64,000 bases of DNA from Escherichia coli. GTDB lineage: Bacteria > Pseudomonadota > Gammaproteobacteria > Enterobacterales > Enterobacteriaceae. The stretch lies in assembly GCF_041886205.1 (NCBI RefSeq), contig NZ_CP169029.1; one strand, given 5' to 3'. A program made the position numbers. Shown here piece after piece: positions 41,001 to 47,000 of this stretch. Positions within the stretch are counted from its first letter, which is position 1; each line of letters starts with the position of its first letter.

Positions 41001-44000
41001 TGCTGGATTCAATATGCAGGTGAGCATCAATAAACCCTGGCACCGCCGTTGCGCCGCGGGCATCAATCCGCTGCAAAGCCGGAGCATCAGTGTATTCTGC
41101 GCCAACACCGGCAATGTAACGTCCTTTAATCACAATTGGGCCGGAAATTTCTCCGCCATTGATCAGGTCGAGAATAGAGACATTATCAATAATATAATCG
41201 GCAACAGCGTCGCCACGGGAAACGGCTAACAATTCCTGGTATTCAGCCCGGCTAATGTGATGAAATTTATGGTTAATAGAATTATTCATATTTTTCTCAT
41301 TTTGATTTTATCAATTTGATTATTATTTATCATAAAGAAACGTCGCGAGATTATTAAAGAATATCCATTAATGTGCAATTGAAATGTGATAATTATCACT
41401 GAACCGTTGTTGTCATTTGTTTTACAAAAGCAAGGGATTAAATCTCCTCCAATGGACAAAAAAATGAATAATGACAATACCGATTACGTGAGTAATGAAT
41501 CAGGGACGCTTTCGCGATTATTTAAACTACCTCAGCATGGGACCACCGTCCGCACAGAATTGATTGCGGGGATGACCACTTTTTTAACCATGGTGTACAT
41601 CGTTTTTGTGAACCCGCAAATCCTCGGCGCGGCACAAATGGACCCGAAAGTGGTGTTTGTTACCACCTGTTTGATTGCCGGTATCGGCAGTATTGCGATG
41701 GGGATATTTGCTAACTTACCCGTGGCGCTGGCTCCGGCAATGGGGCTGAACGCCTTCTTTGCCTTCGTGGTCGTGGGGGCGATGGGCATCTCCTGGCAGA
41801 CCGGGATGGGCGCAATATTCTGGGGCGCAGTTGGACTATTTTTGCTCACGCTGTTTCGTATCCGGTACTGGATGATCTCCAACATTCCCTTAAGTTTACG
41901 TATTGGTATCACCAGCGGAATTGGATTATTTATCGCCTTAATGGGATTAAAAAATACTGGCGTTATTGTCGCCAATAAAGACACGCTGGTGATGATTGGC
42001 GATTTAAGTTCTCACGGCGTGTTGTTAGGTATTTTAGGGTTTTTTATTATAACCGTGTTGTCATCACGTCATTTTCATGCCGCGGTGCTGGTTTCTATTG
42101 TGGTGACGTCTTGCTGTGGATTATTTTTCGGTGATGTTCATTTTAGCGGCGTCTATTCCATTCCGCCTGATATTAGCGGCGTCATTGGTGAAGTAGATTT
42201 GAGCGGCGCGTTAACACTTGAACTCGCCGGTATCATTTTCTCCTTTATGCTGATCAACCTATTTGATTCATCAGGAACATTAATTGGTGTAACTGATAAA
42301 GCGGGCTTAATAGATAGTAACGGTAAATTCCCCAATATGAATAAGGCGCTGTATGTTGATAGCGTCAGTTCGGTGGCGGGGGCGTTTATCGGCACCTCGT
42401 CTGTTACTGCCTATATTGAAAGTACTTCTGGTGTGGCAGTCGGTGGTCGCACGGGGCTGACTGCGGTTGTGGTTGGCGTTATGTTCCTGTTGGTTATGTT
42501 CTTCTCACCGCTGGTGGCGATGGTTCCTCCTTACGCAACCGCCGGAGCGTTAATCTTTGTTGGCGTGCTGATGACTTCGAGCCTGGCGCGCGTTAACTGG
42601 GATGATTTTACCGAATCGGTGCCCGCATTTATTACCACGGTGATGATGCCCTTTACTTTCTCGATCACCGAAGGGATTGCACTCGGCTTTATGTCGTACT
42701 GCATCATGAAAGTGTGCACCGGGCGCTGGCGCGATCTGAACCTGTGTGTGGTGGTGGTCGCAGCTCTGTTTGCACTGAAGATTATTCTGGTGGATTAGTA
42801 ACTGGCGAGGGTTTCCAGATATCATGAGTTCTGATTACGCAGGAGAACTCATGATCTGGATAATGCTCGCCACGCTGGCGGTGGTGTTTGTGGTTGGTTT
42901 TCGGGTGCTGACATCCGGGGCCAGAAAAGCGATTCGCCGTCTCAGCGATCGGCTGAATATCGATGTCATACCCGTGGAGTCGATGGTCGATCAAATGGGA
43001 AAGTCAGCCGGTGACGAATTTTTACGTTATTTGCATCGTCCGGATGAGTCGCACCTGCAAAACGCCGCGCAGGTGTTGCTCATCTGGCAAATTGTCATTG
43101 TCGATGGTAGCGAACAGAACCTGCTGCAATGGCATCGGATTTTACAAAAAGCCCGTCTTGCCGCGCCGATTACCGATGCTCAGGTCAGGCTGGCGCTGGG
43201 GTTTCTGCGCGAAACCGAACCTGAAATGCAGGATATTAATGCTTTTCAGATGCGCTATAACGCGTTCTTTCAGCCTGCCGAGGGCGTTCACTGGCTGCAT
43301 TAAAACCGCTTCGTCTTATCAGCCTACAGACCGCGCCTGACCTGTCGGGTGGATAAGACGTTCACGCCGCATCCGGTATCGGAACTGACAGTTGGTGAAC
43401 GTATTATCTACGTTCTATTTACAGCAGCACCTCCAGCCCGTGTTTTTGCACAATGCTGAGCAGTTTTAATGAAATGCCATTGGGGCGTTTAGCGCCACTT
43501 TCCCATTTTTGTACAGTTGAAACGCTGGTATTGAGATAGTGAGCGAAGACGGACTGACTCACTTTTAATTTTTCCCGCAGTGCTTTTATCTCAACAGGTT
43601 GTAAGTCTTGCACGCTGGTCAGGCAGGCTTTGTCAAAAGTACGCATTGTTTCGGCAGAAATAGCATCGACGCTGGACAATCCAGCCGCTGCGCTGTGAAT
43701 AGCCTCAAATGCAGGACTTTTAAATTTAGTTTTTGCAGTCATAGCAGATCTCTGTCAGTTCTTTAGTGTTAATCATTGCTGTTAGTTGGGCTTTCGTCAG
43801 GAAGGCATAATGCTTTGCAAGTTCACGAAACCCAGCCAGTTCCTGACTATTGATGTTCGACATATCCTGTTTTGCATATAAAAACGTGTAAAACCAATTG
43901 CTTCCCCCTTTTGCCAGAATAATTGCACGCTCACGATTTTGGTGAAGGCGCTTTTTAAAAACGCCACCACCAAGTGCATCAGCTTTACCTTGTTCCGTTT

Positions 44001-47000
44001 CTAAAATGGCCCGGCACAACTCTTCATCTGTTATTGCATGAGACCTGGCTTCCCTTGCAAACCATTTGGTTTTAAACACGCGCATATCGTTGAGGTCCTG
44101 TTATTAAAGTATATCACCAAGTGCAATACTTTATCCCTTATTCCCAACCCAATCGCGAAAATGCATATCAGCTTGCCCTATGATTTTTATTTCTTCGAGC
44201 AGCCTCGAACTTTTCCCACAACACCGTAAAAGTTGCAAAAACGTTAAATGCGTCACACATTTCAATGTTAAAGTGGTCGGCTTTTCCCCTGAAACATGCC
44301 ACGGGTAACACCATGAGTGAATTTATTGCCGAAAACCGCGGCGCGGATGCCATCACCCGACCGAACTGGTCAGCCGTTTTCTCGGTGGCGTTTTGTGTCG
44401 CCTGTCTGATTATCGTTGAGTTTTTGCCCGTCAGTTTGTTGACGCCAATGGCCCAGGATTTAGGCATTTCGGAAGGGGTTGCCGGGCAATCGGTGACCGT
44501 GACCGCCTTTGTGGCAATGTTTGCCAGTTTGTTTATTACCCAGACAATTCAGGCCACTGACCGCCGCTACGTTGTTATTTTGTTTGCCGTTTTGCTGACG
44601 CTCTCCTGCTTGCTGGTTTCCTTTGCTAACTCATTCAGTTTGCTTTTAATCGGTCGTGCCTGTCTGGGACTGGCGCTGGGCGGGTTCTGGGCGATGTCGG
44701 CGTCGCTGACCATGCGTCTGGTACCGCCGCGTACGGTGCCGAAGGCGCTGTCGGTGATCTTCGGCGCGGTTTCTATTGCGCTGGTGATTGCCGCGCCGTT
44801 GGGCAGTTTTTTAGGCGAGCTTATCGGTTGGCGCAATGTCTTTAATGCGGCGGCGGTGATGGGCGTGCTGTGTATTTTCTGGATTATCAAATCATTGCCT
44901 TCACTGCCAGGCGAACCCTCGCATCAGAAACAAAATACTTTCCGCTTATTACAACGTCCGGGTGTGATGGCAGGGATGATCGCCATCTTCATGTCTTTCG
45001 CCGGACAGTTTGCTTTCTTCACATATATTCGCCCAGTGTATATGAACCTGGCGGGATTCAGCGTGGATGGCTTAACGCTGGTGCTGTTGAGTTTTGGCAT
45101 TGCCAGCTTTATCGGTACGTCGCTTTCGTCGTTCATTCTTAAACGTTCGGTAAAACTGGCCTTAGCAGGCGCGCCGTTAATACTGGCTGTGAGTGCGTTG
45201 GTGCTGACGTTGTGGGGAAGCGATAAAATCGTTGCTACCGGCGTGGCGATTATCTGGGGGCTGACTTTTGCATTGGTTCCCGTCGGCTGGTCAACGTGGA
45301 TCACCCGCTCGCTGGCCGATCAGGCAGAAAAAGCCGGGTCTATTCAGGTGGCGGTTATTCAGCTTGCTAATACCTGTGGTGCGGCAATCGGTGGTTATGC
45401 GCTGGATAATATTGGTCTGACTTCGCCGTTGATGTTTTCTGGCACATTGATGTTGCTGACTGCATTGTTGGTTACTGCAAAGGTGAAAATGAAGAAATCC
45501 TGATATCAGGTAAAGAAGCGTTGGTCAGTAGTTGTTGCTGTTCTTACATATCCGGGCATTCTACCTTACCCAACGCTTCCCAATAATTGCTCTGATTATT
45601 ACGTTCCATCGCCACGATGGCCTCGCGTATATGTTGTTTATTGTTTTCATCTGACAACATTAACTTTTCCCACGCTTCATCTGATAATGACGCCTGTGGC
45701 GTGCAAATTTTACGTAAATCTTGTAATACCGTGGTTTTCTCTTTTGCGGACTGCAGTGAGCTAAAAGGCGACTCGGCGTATACGATGCCTGGCATAGCGA
45801 AAAAAGTGAAAATAAGCAGTAGTGTCGTTGGTTTCATGGATTCAACCTTTTACAAATGTGTATCGAATGAAGCATAAGTGTAGTTTGCTTTCATCGCTCT
45901 CATCATGCTGTACGAAACGCGCTTGCGTGGTCAGTAAGAAGTGCCAGACTTTATATTCCACTTTTATTCCTTTTTATTCTTATCGATAGCGTTTCGTTTT
46001 TTAAACCGCAGCGACCTTACCGCTATAGTCAGGTAATCATTAATAAAAGGATAAAAAAATGAAACTGACAACACATCATCTACGGACAGGGGCCGCATTA
46101 TTGCTGGCCGGAATTCTGCTGGCAGGTTGCGACCAGAGTAGCAGCGATGCAAAACACATTAAAGTTGGCGTTATAAATGGCGCAGAACAAGATGTCGCGG
46201 AAGTCGCTAAAAAGGTGGCAAAAGAGAAATATGGCCTCGATGTTGAACTGGTAGGATTTAGCGGTTCGTTGCTACCGAACGATGCGACAAATCATGGCGA
46301 ACTTGATGCGAATGTCTTCCAGCATCGACCCTTTCTTGAACAAGATAATCAGGCGCATGGTTATAAACTGGTAGCGGTGGGAAATACGTTTGTCTTCCCT
46401 ATGGCGGGTTATTCCAAAAAAATCAAAACCGTGGCGCAAATAAAAGAAGGCGCGACAGTGGCGATCCCCAACGACCCGACCAACCTTGGTCGCGCACTTT
46501 TACTGTTGCAAAAAGAGAAGCTAATTACTCTGAAAGAGGGAAAAGGGTTATTACCTACCGCGCTGGATATAACCGATAATCCTCGTCATTTGCAGATTAT
46601 GGAACTCGAGGGGGCGCAGCTCCCGCGCGTACTGGATGATCCCAAAGTTGATGTAGCGATTATCAGCACCACTTACATTCAGCAGACAGGGCTTTCTCCG
46701 GTGCACGACAGCGTATTTATTGAAGATAAGAATTCGCCGTATGTGAATATTTTGGTGGCACGGGAAGATAATAAGAATGCAGAAAACGTGAAGGAATTTC
46801 TGCAATCTTATCAATCACCCGAAGTCGCTAAAGCGGCAGAAACCATTTTTAACGGTGGCGCGGTGCCTGGCTGGTAATTCTCACTCATGCCGCGCCGGAC
46901 GATTTATTTTTCTGGCGCGGCGACGGGAATCCATTGAAATCAAAATCACCGATGACAGAATCAGCAGCGTTCCCAGCCAGTCCGGTAATGTGAACGTGAT

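What the first reader, a model, noticed from the sequence alone, without database searches (positions are those of the whole stretch)
43419..44085. HigB-2/HigA-2-like toxin-antitoxin module between yicN and nepI, not in the K-12 layout I recall
Two overlapping minus-strand genes sit in the yicN-nepI gap: a 119-aa protein with the GGG-x-x-K-(K/R)-(L/I)...GG(S/Y)...(Y/F)..Y/F core of HigB-2/killer-protein RelE-superfamily toxins, followed by a 107-aa XRE HTH protein. The toxin-first order with a 17-nt overlap is the hig-type arrangement. K-12 numbers yicN and nepI consecutively (b3663, b3662), so this is accessory content inserted right after a REP cluster.
Basis: partly seen in the sequence, partly recalled or inferred. 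Interest (0 to 1): 0.5.

Follow-up and report, generated by a model that had tools for sequence, protein, structure and literature searches.

The report
Old HigBA-2-type toxin-antitoxin pair
Between yicN and nepI this E. coli carries an ordinary, already auto-annotated toxin-antitoxin gene pair of the Vibrio HigB-2/HigA-2 kind; it is an old resident of this site that K-12 lost by deletion, not a new insertion.

Summary

The 'insertion' reading does not. The same pair sits next to nepI in Citrobacter, Klebsiella and Salmonella, between nepI and yicN in the first two. It diverges about as much as its neighbours and is under purifying selection. K-12 keeps a 41-nt scar that still encodes ETEQGK of the toxin. 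Of 5426 complete E. coli genomes, 1716 carry the cassette and 3667 the scar.

RefSeq already names it a type II RelE/ParE toxin. I found no experimental study of this locus. It is a new, uncharacterised member of a known kind, of low to moderate interest.

The parts
43726..44085 (-). Toxin gene, 119 aa (RefSeq aa from GTG 44079). It is a PF06296 'RelE' family, HigB-2-type RelE-superfamily toxin.
43419..43742 (-). Antitoxin gene, 107 aa. It has a conserved N-terminal ~45 residues (presumed toxin-binding) and a C-terminal XRE/lambda-repressor-like HTH domain (about residues 46-102).
   Evidence: ORF. HTH_3 E 3e-9. Best PDB relative is VcHigA-2 5JAA, E 4e-10, residues 46-102. The HTH part of the model superposes on the HigA2 C-domain at 1.1-1.5 A with 40% identity. 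The N-terminal motif F-[KR]-S-x-A-F-x-A-[IV]-H is conserved in distant pairs.
43726..43742 (-). 17-nt overlap of toxin stop and antitoxin start (translational coupling inferred).
   Evidence: The same 17-nt overlap geometry is seen in Citrobacter, Salmonella, Klebsiella and Morganella.
44105..44133 (.). Candidate operator: an imperfect palindrome, TAAAGTATATCAC-N3-GTGCAATACTTTA, with its CAC-N3-GTG core at 44115-44123. The family consensus is TAGCAC-N3-GTGCTA.
   Evidence: Inverted repeat I1/I5. CAC-N3-GTG plus flanking TA(T)A is invariant in 5 genera. The perfect TAGCAC-N3-GTGCTA is found upstream of distant family members L021-L024.
44108..44116 (-). Candidate extended -10 promoter element TGaTATACT, inside the right arm of the operator.
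   Evidence: Read by eye. TGnTATA[CT]T is conserved in the five genera. The simple consensus scan found no -35/-10 pair, so this is inference.
44095..44098 (-). Shine-Dalgarno AGGA, 9 nt before ATG 44085.
   Evidence: Sequence. The ACAGGA block is invariant in the cross-genus alignment.
43379..44218 (.). The 840-nt segment present here and replaced by a 41-nt scar in K-12-type genomes.
   Evidence: Alignment of occupied and empty sites. The length difference of 799 nt matches 2680 vs 1881.
43983..44001 (-). Toxin codons (ETEQGK) that survive in the K-12 scar, 17/19 nt identical and in frame.
   Evidence: 3 of 2000 shuffles reach the score. ETEQGK occurs only in E. coli-type alleles among 120 homologues.
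43349..43411 (.). REP element (43351-43374) plus a complementary degenerate arm (43395-43411) just past the antitoxin stop. It may act as a hairpin or terminator between the convergent yicN and TA transcripts.
   Evidence: REP match. Inverted repeat I1, 17 nt, 88% complementary. The terminator role is inference, since the terminator scan found nothing.

Best explanation
This is a chromosomal type II toxin-antitoxin operon of the HigBA-2 type. One promoter upstream of 44085 transcribes the toxin first and then the overlapping antitoxin. The 119-aa toxin has a RelE/BECR fold. It most likely enters the ribosomal A site and cleaves translated mRNA, as V. cholerae HigB-2 does. The inferred catalytic residues are K44, R46, R53, Y70 and K72. 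The 107-aa antitoxin is expected to dimerise through its C-terminal HTH domain and bind the palindromic operator that overlaps the -10 element, repressing the operon. Its conserved N-terminal ~45 residues are expected to bind and neutralise the toxin. If the antitoxin is lost, for example by proteolysis or halted synthesis, free toxin would stop translation. The module is an old, vertically inherited resident of the nepI-yicN intergenic region of Enterobacteriaceae. About two thirds of E. coli, including K-12, have lost it through one ancient deletion. Shown here: family membership, fold, residue conservation, operator conservation, synteny, purifying selection and population frequencies. Inferred: toxicity, RNase activity, neutralisation mode and autoregulation.
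For: Toxin family: PF06296 full length, E 1e-41. VcHigB-2 itself hits the same model, E 3e-8. PMC11980606 places HigB-2 in PF06296.

Active site: the residues shown by mutagenesis in VcHigB2 (PMC5416850; five-residue list in PMC10098735) align with K44/R46/R53/Y70/K72. K44, R46 and R53 are invariant and K72 is at least 90% conserved among 32 diverse sequences.

Antitoxin: the best PDB relative is VcHigA-2, with structural superposition at 1.1-1.5 A.

Operator: a palindrome at 44105-44133. It is conserved across genera and in distant members, while the surrounding DNA is not.

Architecture: a toxin followed by an overlapping 106-107-aa HTH protein is seen in every relative examined.

Selection: pN/pS is about 0.2-0.27 for the toxin and 0.12-0.15 for the antitoxin, with synonymous sites saturated.

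Synteny. Scar. Frequencies: 1716 genomes with the cassette and 3667 with the scar, of 5426.
Against: No experiment on this locus was found. Toxicity, RNase activity and repression are therefore all inferred from relatives that are only about 20% identical.

Sequence similarity to VcHigB-2 is weak. There is no phmmer or profile hit in the PDB, and hhalign gives only E 0.04.

The toxin carries a ~25-residue C-terminal helix-strand extension with a near-invariant E112. This extension is typical of the family but absent from VcHigB-2. Its role is unknown.

The antitoxin N-terminus shows no detectable similarity to that of VcHigA-2. It is predicted as two helices rather than a helix plus a strand, so the neutralisation details may differ.

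Y70 is Y or F across the family. The window's operator is a degenerate version of the consensus. The simple promoter scan found no sigma-70 site.

Salmonella SehA shows that a RelE-superfamily toxin can lack RNase activity (PMC12817084).
Confidence: 0.75

Rival explanations
1. The pair is a genuine toxin-antitoxin system, but the toxin does not act as a ribosome-dependent mRNase. It could inhibit another target by binding, as Salmonella SehA inhibits RNase III. It could poison gyrase like ParE. The family-specific C-terminal extension could carry the activity.
Against: SehA is described as 40% identical to E. coli HigB, and its numbered residues (Y53, H88 and others) do not fit this protein, so it is not a close relative. 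I did not scan SehA against Pfam. SehA lacks the canonical active site, whereas all five HigB-2 active-site positions are kept here, three of them invariant. HigB-2 is the best structural match by a clear margin. The second characterised HigBA-2-type toxin, Coxiella ToxP, also inhibits translation (PMC10098735).
Confidence: 0.12
2. The module is a domesticated or decaying relic. Either the toxin is no longer toxic, or the HTH protein mainly serves as a regulator of the divergent neighbour nepI or of other genes, and the TA behaviour is vestigial.
For: There has been long vertical residence at a fixed site divergent from nepI. Two thirds of E. coli live without it. Frameshifted or truncated toxin alleles exist (P0003, P0005, P0094). 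O157:H7 has lost the ATG start. The window's operator has drifted from the perfect palindrome. There is a precedent in ybaQ, an antitoxin kept without its higB-1 toxin (bioRxiv 10.1101/2020.05.25.114553).
Against: Both genes are under purifying selection comparable to their neighbours. The catalytic residues are intact. Toxin and antitoxin are lost together in the scar allele, rather than the antitoxin being kept. The nepI-proximal conserved block is retained in K-12, so nepI does not need the module.
Confidence: 0.1
3. The cassette is a recent horizontally acquired insertion at a REP-associated hotspot.
For: It is absent from K-12 and patchy in E. coli. G+C is lower (0.42-0.44) than in the flanks (0.50-0.55). 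It lies next to a REP element.
Against: The same site, orientation and geometry are found in four other enterobacterial lineages, with divergence tracking nepI and yicN. The K-12 and E. whittamii 'empty' sites contain a toxin-gene remnant with identical boundaries. There is no integrase, transposase, target-site duplication or terminal repeat at the borders. There are no plasmid copies in E. coli, and only 3 viral loci were found for the family.
Confidence: 0.03

Closest known systems
Vibrio cholerae HigB-2/HigA-2 (VCA0468/0469; PDB 5JAA, 5JA8, 5MJE, 8A0X)
   Same: The Pfam toxin family is the same, PF06296. It is the closest solved fold for both proteins. All five active-site positions are conserved. 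The gene order is toxin first. The antitoxin has an N-terminal non-HTH segment plus a C-terminal lambda-repressor-like HTH.
   Different: Toxin identity is only about 20%, with no pairwise sequence hit. VcHigB-2 lacks the C-terminal helix-strand extension and covers only model positions 8-96 of 120. VcHigB-2 has a long lysine-rich beta2-beta3 loop that is short here. The antitoxin N-termini are not detectably similar. The Vibrio module sits in the superintegron, whereas this one is at a fixed core-genome site.
Coxiella burnetii ToxP/AntitoxP (CBUA0028/0027, plasmid QpH1)
   Same: It is described as a HigBA-2 homologue with the same five active-site residues. It is toxin-first, the toxin inhibits translation, and the antitoxin binds both the toxin and its promoter (PMC10098735).
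   Different: It is plasmid-borne and serves plasmid maintenance. I did not compare the sequences directly.
E. coli K-12 RelE/RelB and other RelE-superfamily mRNases (YoeB, YafQ, K-12 HigB/YgjN, Rts1 HigB)
   Different: They belong to different Pfam families (PF05016, PF06769, PF15738, PF09907, PF05015, as listed in PMC11980606), and only PF06296 hits here. In relBE, yefM-yoeB and dinJ-yafQ the antitoxin comes first. The antitoxin folds differ.
higB-1/ybaQ of E. coli phylogroups B2 and F (Rousset et al., bioRxiv 10.1101/2020.05.25.114553)
   Same: It is another chromosomal hig-type module at a fixed E. coli locus, present in some clades and lost in others including K-12. It is a precedent for the evolutionary pattern.
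   Different: It is a different locus. There the antitoxin is retained after the toxin is lost. Here both genes were removed together, leaving a toxin fragment.

Membership tests
HigBA-2-type TA (PF06296 toxin + HigA-2-type antitoxin) | The toxin matches the PF06296 profile above noise over most of its length. | tested here: met
   E 9.8e-42, 142 bits, query 1-113 against model 1-120/120. The reference VcHigB-2 scores 34 bits on the same model.
HigBA-2-type TA (PF06296 toxin + HigA-2-type antitoxin) | RelE/BECR fold with HigB-2 as the nearest structure. | tested here: met
HigBA-2-type TA (PF06296 toxin + HigA-2-type antitoxin) | Active-site residues equivalent to VcHigB-2 K49, R51, R64, Y82 and K84. 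| tested here: met
   The counterparts are K44, R46, R53, Y70 and K72 in alignment A5. Three are invariant, K72 is at least 90% conserved, and Y70 is Y or F in the family. The residue list comes from PMC5416850 and PMC10098735.
HigBA-2-type TA (PF06296 toxin + HigA-2-type antitoxin) | Toxin gene upstream of an adjacent or overlapping antitoxin gene in one operon. | tested here: met
   A 17-nt overlap with the toxin first. The same arrangement is seen in all relatives examined.
HigBA-2-type TA (PF06296 toxin + HigA-2-type antitoxin) | The antitoxin C-terminal HTH domain is homologous to HigA-2. | tested here: met
   phmmer E 4.4e-10 to 5JAA_A, residues 46-102. Foldseek rmsd 1.1-1.5 A with 40% identity to 5J9I and 5JAA.
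HigBA-2-type TA (PF06296 toxin + HigA-2-type antitoxin) | The antitoxin N-terminal segment binds and neutralises the toxin (disordered, folding to a helix plus a strand on binding). | tested here: inconclusive
   The N-terminal 45 residues are strongly conserved. In a fused model they are predicted as two helices with pLDDT 81-91.
HigBA-2-type TA (PF06296 toxin + HigA-2-type antitoxin) | A palindromic operator in the promoter, giving autoregulation. | tested here: met
   A palindrome at 44105-44133 overlaps a TGnTATACT element. TAGCAC-N3-GTGCTA is conserved upstream of distant members. Binding and repression themselves cannot be tested here.
HigBA-2-type TA (PF06296 toxin + HigA-2-type antitoxin) | Toxicity, neutralisation by the partner, and ribosome-dependent mRNA cleavage. 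| not testable with these tools
   This needs expression and in vitro translation or cleavage assays. No published data on this locus were found.
Classical HigB (Rts1 HigB PF05015; K-12 HigB/YgjN PF09907) | A match to the PF05015 or PF09907 profile. | tested here: not met
ParE gyrase poisons (PF05016 in part) | A ParE-type profile match, no RNase active-site residues, and ParE as the nearest fold. | tested here: not met
   There is no PF05016 hit. RNase-type basic residues and the Tyr are conserved. ParE structures rank below HigB2, Cami1, HigB and RelE.
Known anti-phage defence systems (PADLOC-DB v2) | The toxin or the pair matches a defence-system model. | tested here: not met
   There were 0 families for the toxin. 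The antitoxin gave only generic HTH matches (RmrA, HTH_VI).

The most novel reading that the evidence does not exclude
The nepI-yicN HigBA-2 module may be an unusually old, vertically inherited chromosomal TA. It predates the split of Escherichia, Citrobacter, Salmonella and Klebsiella. In Escherichia it would persist as a long-lived presence/absence polymorphism: intact in 32% of E. coli, with one shared deletion scar in 68% and in E. whittamii. That would point to a host-level function under balancing selection, such as phage defence or stress-linked control next to the nucleoside efflux gene nepI. In addition, typical PF06296 toxins have a C-terminal helix-strand extension, and their antitoxin N-terminus is unlike that of VcHigA-2. 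They may therefore be neutralised differently from the beta-strand-sliding mechanism of the atypically short VcHigB-2.
Probability: 0.2. Interest if true: 0.45.

Novelty: new member of a known kind. Interest (0 to 1): 0.27.

Why it matters
The practical value is modest. It settles what this accessory pair is, and it corrects the direction of the event: a loss in K-12, not a gain here. It offers a tractable E. coli representative of the typical full-length form of PF06296, for which only the short Vibrio protein has a solved structure. It gives a testable operator consensus, TAGCAC-N3-GTGCTA, for this antitoxin family. It is also a clean example against the default assumption that chromosomal TA modules are recent mobile arrivals. 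This one has stayed at one core-genome site across genera, with both genes under purifying selection, yet it is dispensable in two thirds of E. coli.

Tried and rejected
1. Direct sequence link to solved toxins. phmmer and a 31-sequence profile found nothing in the PDB, and hhalign against VcHigB-2 gave only E 0.04. The link had to be made through Pfam, fold search and a bridging alignment.

2. Salmonella SehAB as the orthologue. I rejected this. SehA is described as 40% identical to E. coli HigB, and its numbered residues do not fit this protein. The true Salmonella relative is P0037, next to nepI.

3. NCBIfam. There was no model for the toxin. The antitoxin's best hits (NadS, MqsA family) fall below their curated cut-offs. 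A literature search for NadS led nowhere.

4. PADLOC gave no defence-system assignment. PHROGs gave only families of unknown function.

5. Mobile-element origin. There are no repeats or target duplications at the borders, no E. coli plasmid copies, and only 3 viral contigs for the family.

6. The exact-pattern scan of genome contigs for the nepI-upstream block returned only E. whittamii and a contaminated MAG contig. Other Escherichia species therefore remain unchecked.

7. The fused toxin-linker-antitoxin AF2 model could not be used to read the interface, because no coordinates or PAE are exposed.

8. An exact 11-nt copy of the operator core inside the toxin ORF (43968-43978) is not conserved in other genera. 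I treat it as chance.

9. The simple promoter and terminator scans found nothing. Rfam gave only sub-threshold hits.

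
Full report
OBSERVATION

The 119-aa ORF is at 43726..44085 and the 107-aa ORF at 43419..43742, overlapping by 17 nt. They lie between yicN (42851-43303, +) and nepI (44313-45503, +). In a K-12 genome, yicN and nepI are separated by only 210 nt, with nothing annotated between them. A canonical REP element sits at 43351-43374. The quoted sequence motifs (GGGVFKKRL, KGGS, FLYAK) are present.

WHAT THE PROTEINS ARE

The upstream protein matches Pfam PF06296 ('RelE') over the whole 120-position model, with E 9.8e-42. V. cholerae HigB-2 has the sequence I confirmed to be that of PDB 5JA9. 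It hits the same model more weakly and only over positions 8-96 (E 3e-8). A 2025 review also places HigB-2 in PF06296 (PMC11980606). Direct sequence searches of the PDB found nothing.

I aligned 30 diverse cluster representatives with VcHigB-2. The VcHigB-2 residues shown by mutagenesis to matter are R51, R64, Y82 and K84 (PMC5416850), with K49 added in PMC10098735. They correspond to window residues K44, R46, R53, Y70 and K72. K44, R46 and R53 are invariant, K72 is at least 90% conserved, and Y70 is Y or F. The family is large, with at least 2000 representatives of 50%-identity clusters at E <= 1e-3.

The downstream protein has an HTH_3 domain at residues 52-96. Its best solved relative is VcHigA-2 (E 4e-10, residues 46-102). 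The HTH part of the model superposes on the HigA2 C-domain at 1.1-1.5 A with 40% identity. Its N-terminal 45 residues show no similarity to VcHigA-2. They are nevertheless strongly conserved across distant pairs, with the motif F-[KR]-S-x-A-F-x-A-[IV]-H. In a fused toxin-linker-antitoxin model they are predicted as two confident helices. I could not inspect the interface.

REGULATORY DNA

An imperfect palindrome lies 20-48 nt upstream of the toxin ATG, at 44105-44133: TAAAGTATATCAC-N3-GTGCAATACTTTA. In an alignment of E. coli, O157, C. koseri, S. enterica, C. freundii and a Klebsiella, several elements are invariant while the DNA further upstream is not conserved. These are the CAC-N3-GTG core, the flanking TATA and the downstream ACAGGA ribosome-binding block.

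The perfect form TAGCAC-N3-GTGCTA is found at the same position in Morganella and in three distant metagenomic members. The right arm contains TGnTATA[CT]T, which I read as an extended -10. That reading is inference, because the simple consensus scan reported no promoter. The arrangement fits autorepression by the HTH antitoxin.

POPULATION AND HISTORY

In 5426 complete E. coli genomes, 1716 carry the whole cassette. It is always chromosomal and always at this site. Another 3667 carry the K-12-type junction. About 43 have some other state, for example a deletion running into nepI.

RefSeq annotates the pair as 'type II toxin-antitoxin system RelE/ParE family toxin' plus 'helix-turn-helix domain-containing protein'. 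There are no E. coli plasmid copies.

Aligning occupied and empty sites shows that window 43379-44218 (840 nt) is replaced in K-12 and in a B2 strain by the same 41 nt. On the toxin strand those 41 nt read ...KIETEQGKD.... They match toxin codons for ETEQGK at 17 of 19 nt, with both differences at third codon positions. Only 3 of 2000 shuffles reach that score. ETEQGK occurs only in the E. coli-type alleles among 120 homologues. Escherichia whittamii has the same scar with the same borders, minus 10 further nt.

The same module has a 119-aa toxin, a 107-aa antitoxin, a 17-nt overlap and a start about 215 nt from the divergent nepI start. It lies between nepI and yicN in Citrobacter koseri, C. 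freundii and a Klebsiella, and next to nepI in Salmonella enterica.

Amino-acid identities to the window proteins are as follows:
- toxin: 66-72%
- antitoxin: 79-84%
- NepI: 80-88%
- YicN: 71-87%

Synonymous sites are saturated for all four genes. pN/pS is about 0.2-0.27 for the toxin and 0.12-0.15 for the antitoxin, which is similar to the neighbours.

The module is therefore an old resident under purifying selection, and the K-12 layout is a deletion derivative. No mobility genes or border repeats are present. The lower G+C of the cassette (0.42-0.44) is the only feature that looks 'foreign'.

MECHANISM

The best-supported reading is a HigBA-2-type type II TA. The toxin would be a ribosome-dependent mRNA endonuclease. 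The antitoxin would neutralise it through its N-terminal segment and repress the operon at the palindrome. The two characterised relatives behave this way: V. cholerae HigBA-2 (PMC5416850) and Coxiella ToxP/AntitoxP (PMC10098735). None of this has been tested for the E. coli locus, and I found no paper on it.

Two differences from the Vibrio prototype limit the inference. First, the toxin has a family-typical C-terminal extension: helix 98-106 and strand 110-115, with a near-invariant E112. Second, the antitoxin N-terminus is unrelated to that of VcHigA-2.

Salmonella SehA was recently reported to inhibit RNase III rather than cleave mRNA (PMC12817084). It shows that fold membership does not guarantee RNase activity. 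SehA is a HigB-like protein described as 40% identical to E. coli HigB and lacking the canonical active site. The active site is kept here.

VERDICT

The identification as a HigB-2/HigA-2-like TA is supported. The 'insertion' reading is wrong in direction. The module is already named generically by RefSeq and belongs to a known family. It is a new, uncharacterised member of a known kind. Its mildly interesting aspects are its age, its fixed synteny and the long-lived presence/absence polymorphism.

Noticed in passing
window 44083-44085; L003 (O157:H7 F6667): In O157:H7 the toxin's ATG start is mutated to ATA. Only the GTG two codons downstream remains, about 15 nt from the AGGA. RefSeq uses that GTG (117 aa) even in strains that keep the ATG. 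Toxin translation may be weakened in O157:H7.
   Followed up: partly
window 44874-45473 (3' half of nepI): nepI is dimorphic in E. coli. Over about 600 nt, the window and K-12 share one haplotype, and O157:H7 and a B2 strain share another that differs by 10-15%. The rest of the region differs by 1-3%. The haplotype is not linked to presence of the TA cassette.
   Followed up: partly
window 44225-44290 (upstream of nepI): A block next to nepI, roughly GTGTAACAT..AAA.TGTGACG.ATTTAACGTTTT.GCAAC on the toxin strand, is conserved across Escherichia, Citrobacter, Salmonella and Klebsiella. It is retained in K-12. It is presumably the nepI promoter or regulator site.
   Followed up: no
proteins P0003, P0005, P0006, P0009, P0094, P0011 (E. 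coli alleles): Several E. coli toxin alleles in public data are frameshifted or truncated, for example a 95-aa form. This shows ongoing decay of the toxin gene in some lineages.
   Followed up: no
L007 (JAIJJM010000942.1, 'Collinsella sp.' MAG): A 1075-nt contig of a Collinsella MAG is 98% identical to this E. coli yicN-TA region. It is almost certainly E. coli contamination of the bin.
   Followed up: no
window 43968-43978 and 44115-44125: An exact 11-nt copy of the operator core (CACCAAGTGCA) lies inside the toxin ORF. It is not conserved in other genera, so it is probably chance.
   Followed up: yes
L005 (E. coli strain Q5): In this strain a larger deletion removes the intergenic region and the 5' end of nepI, which is annotated as a partial pseudogene.
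   Followed up: no
L024 (Morganella morganii): The Morganella relative of the module lies near a phage-type integrase fragment and a second small HTH gene. Outside the Enterobacteriaceae core site, the family therefore also occurs in island-like contexts.
   Followed up: no
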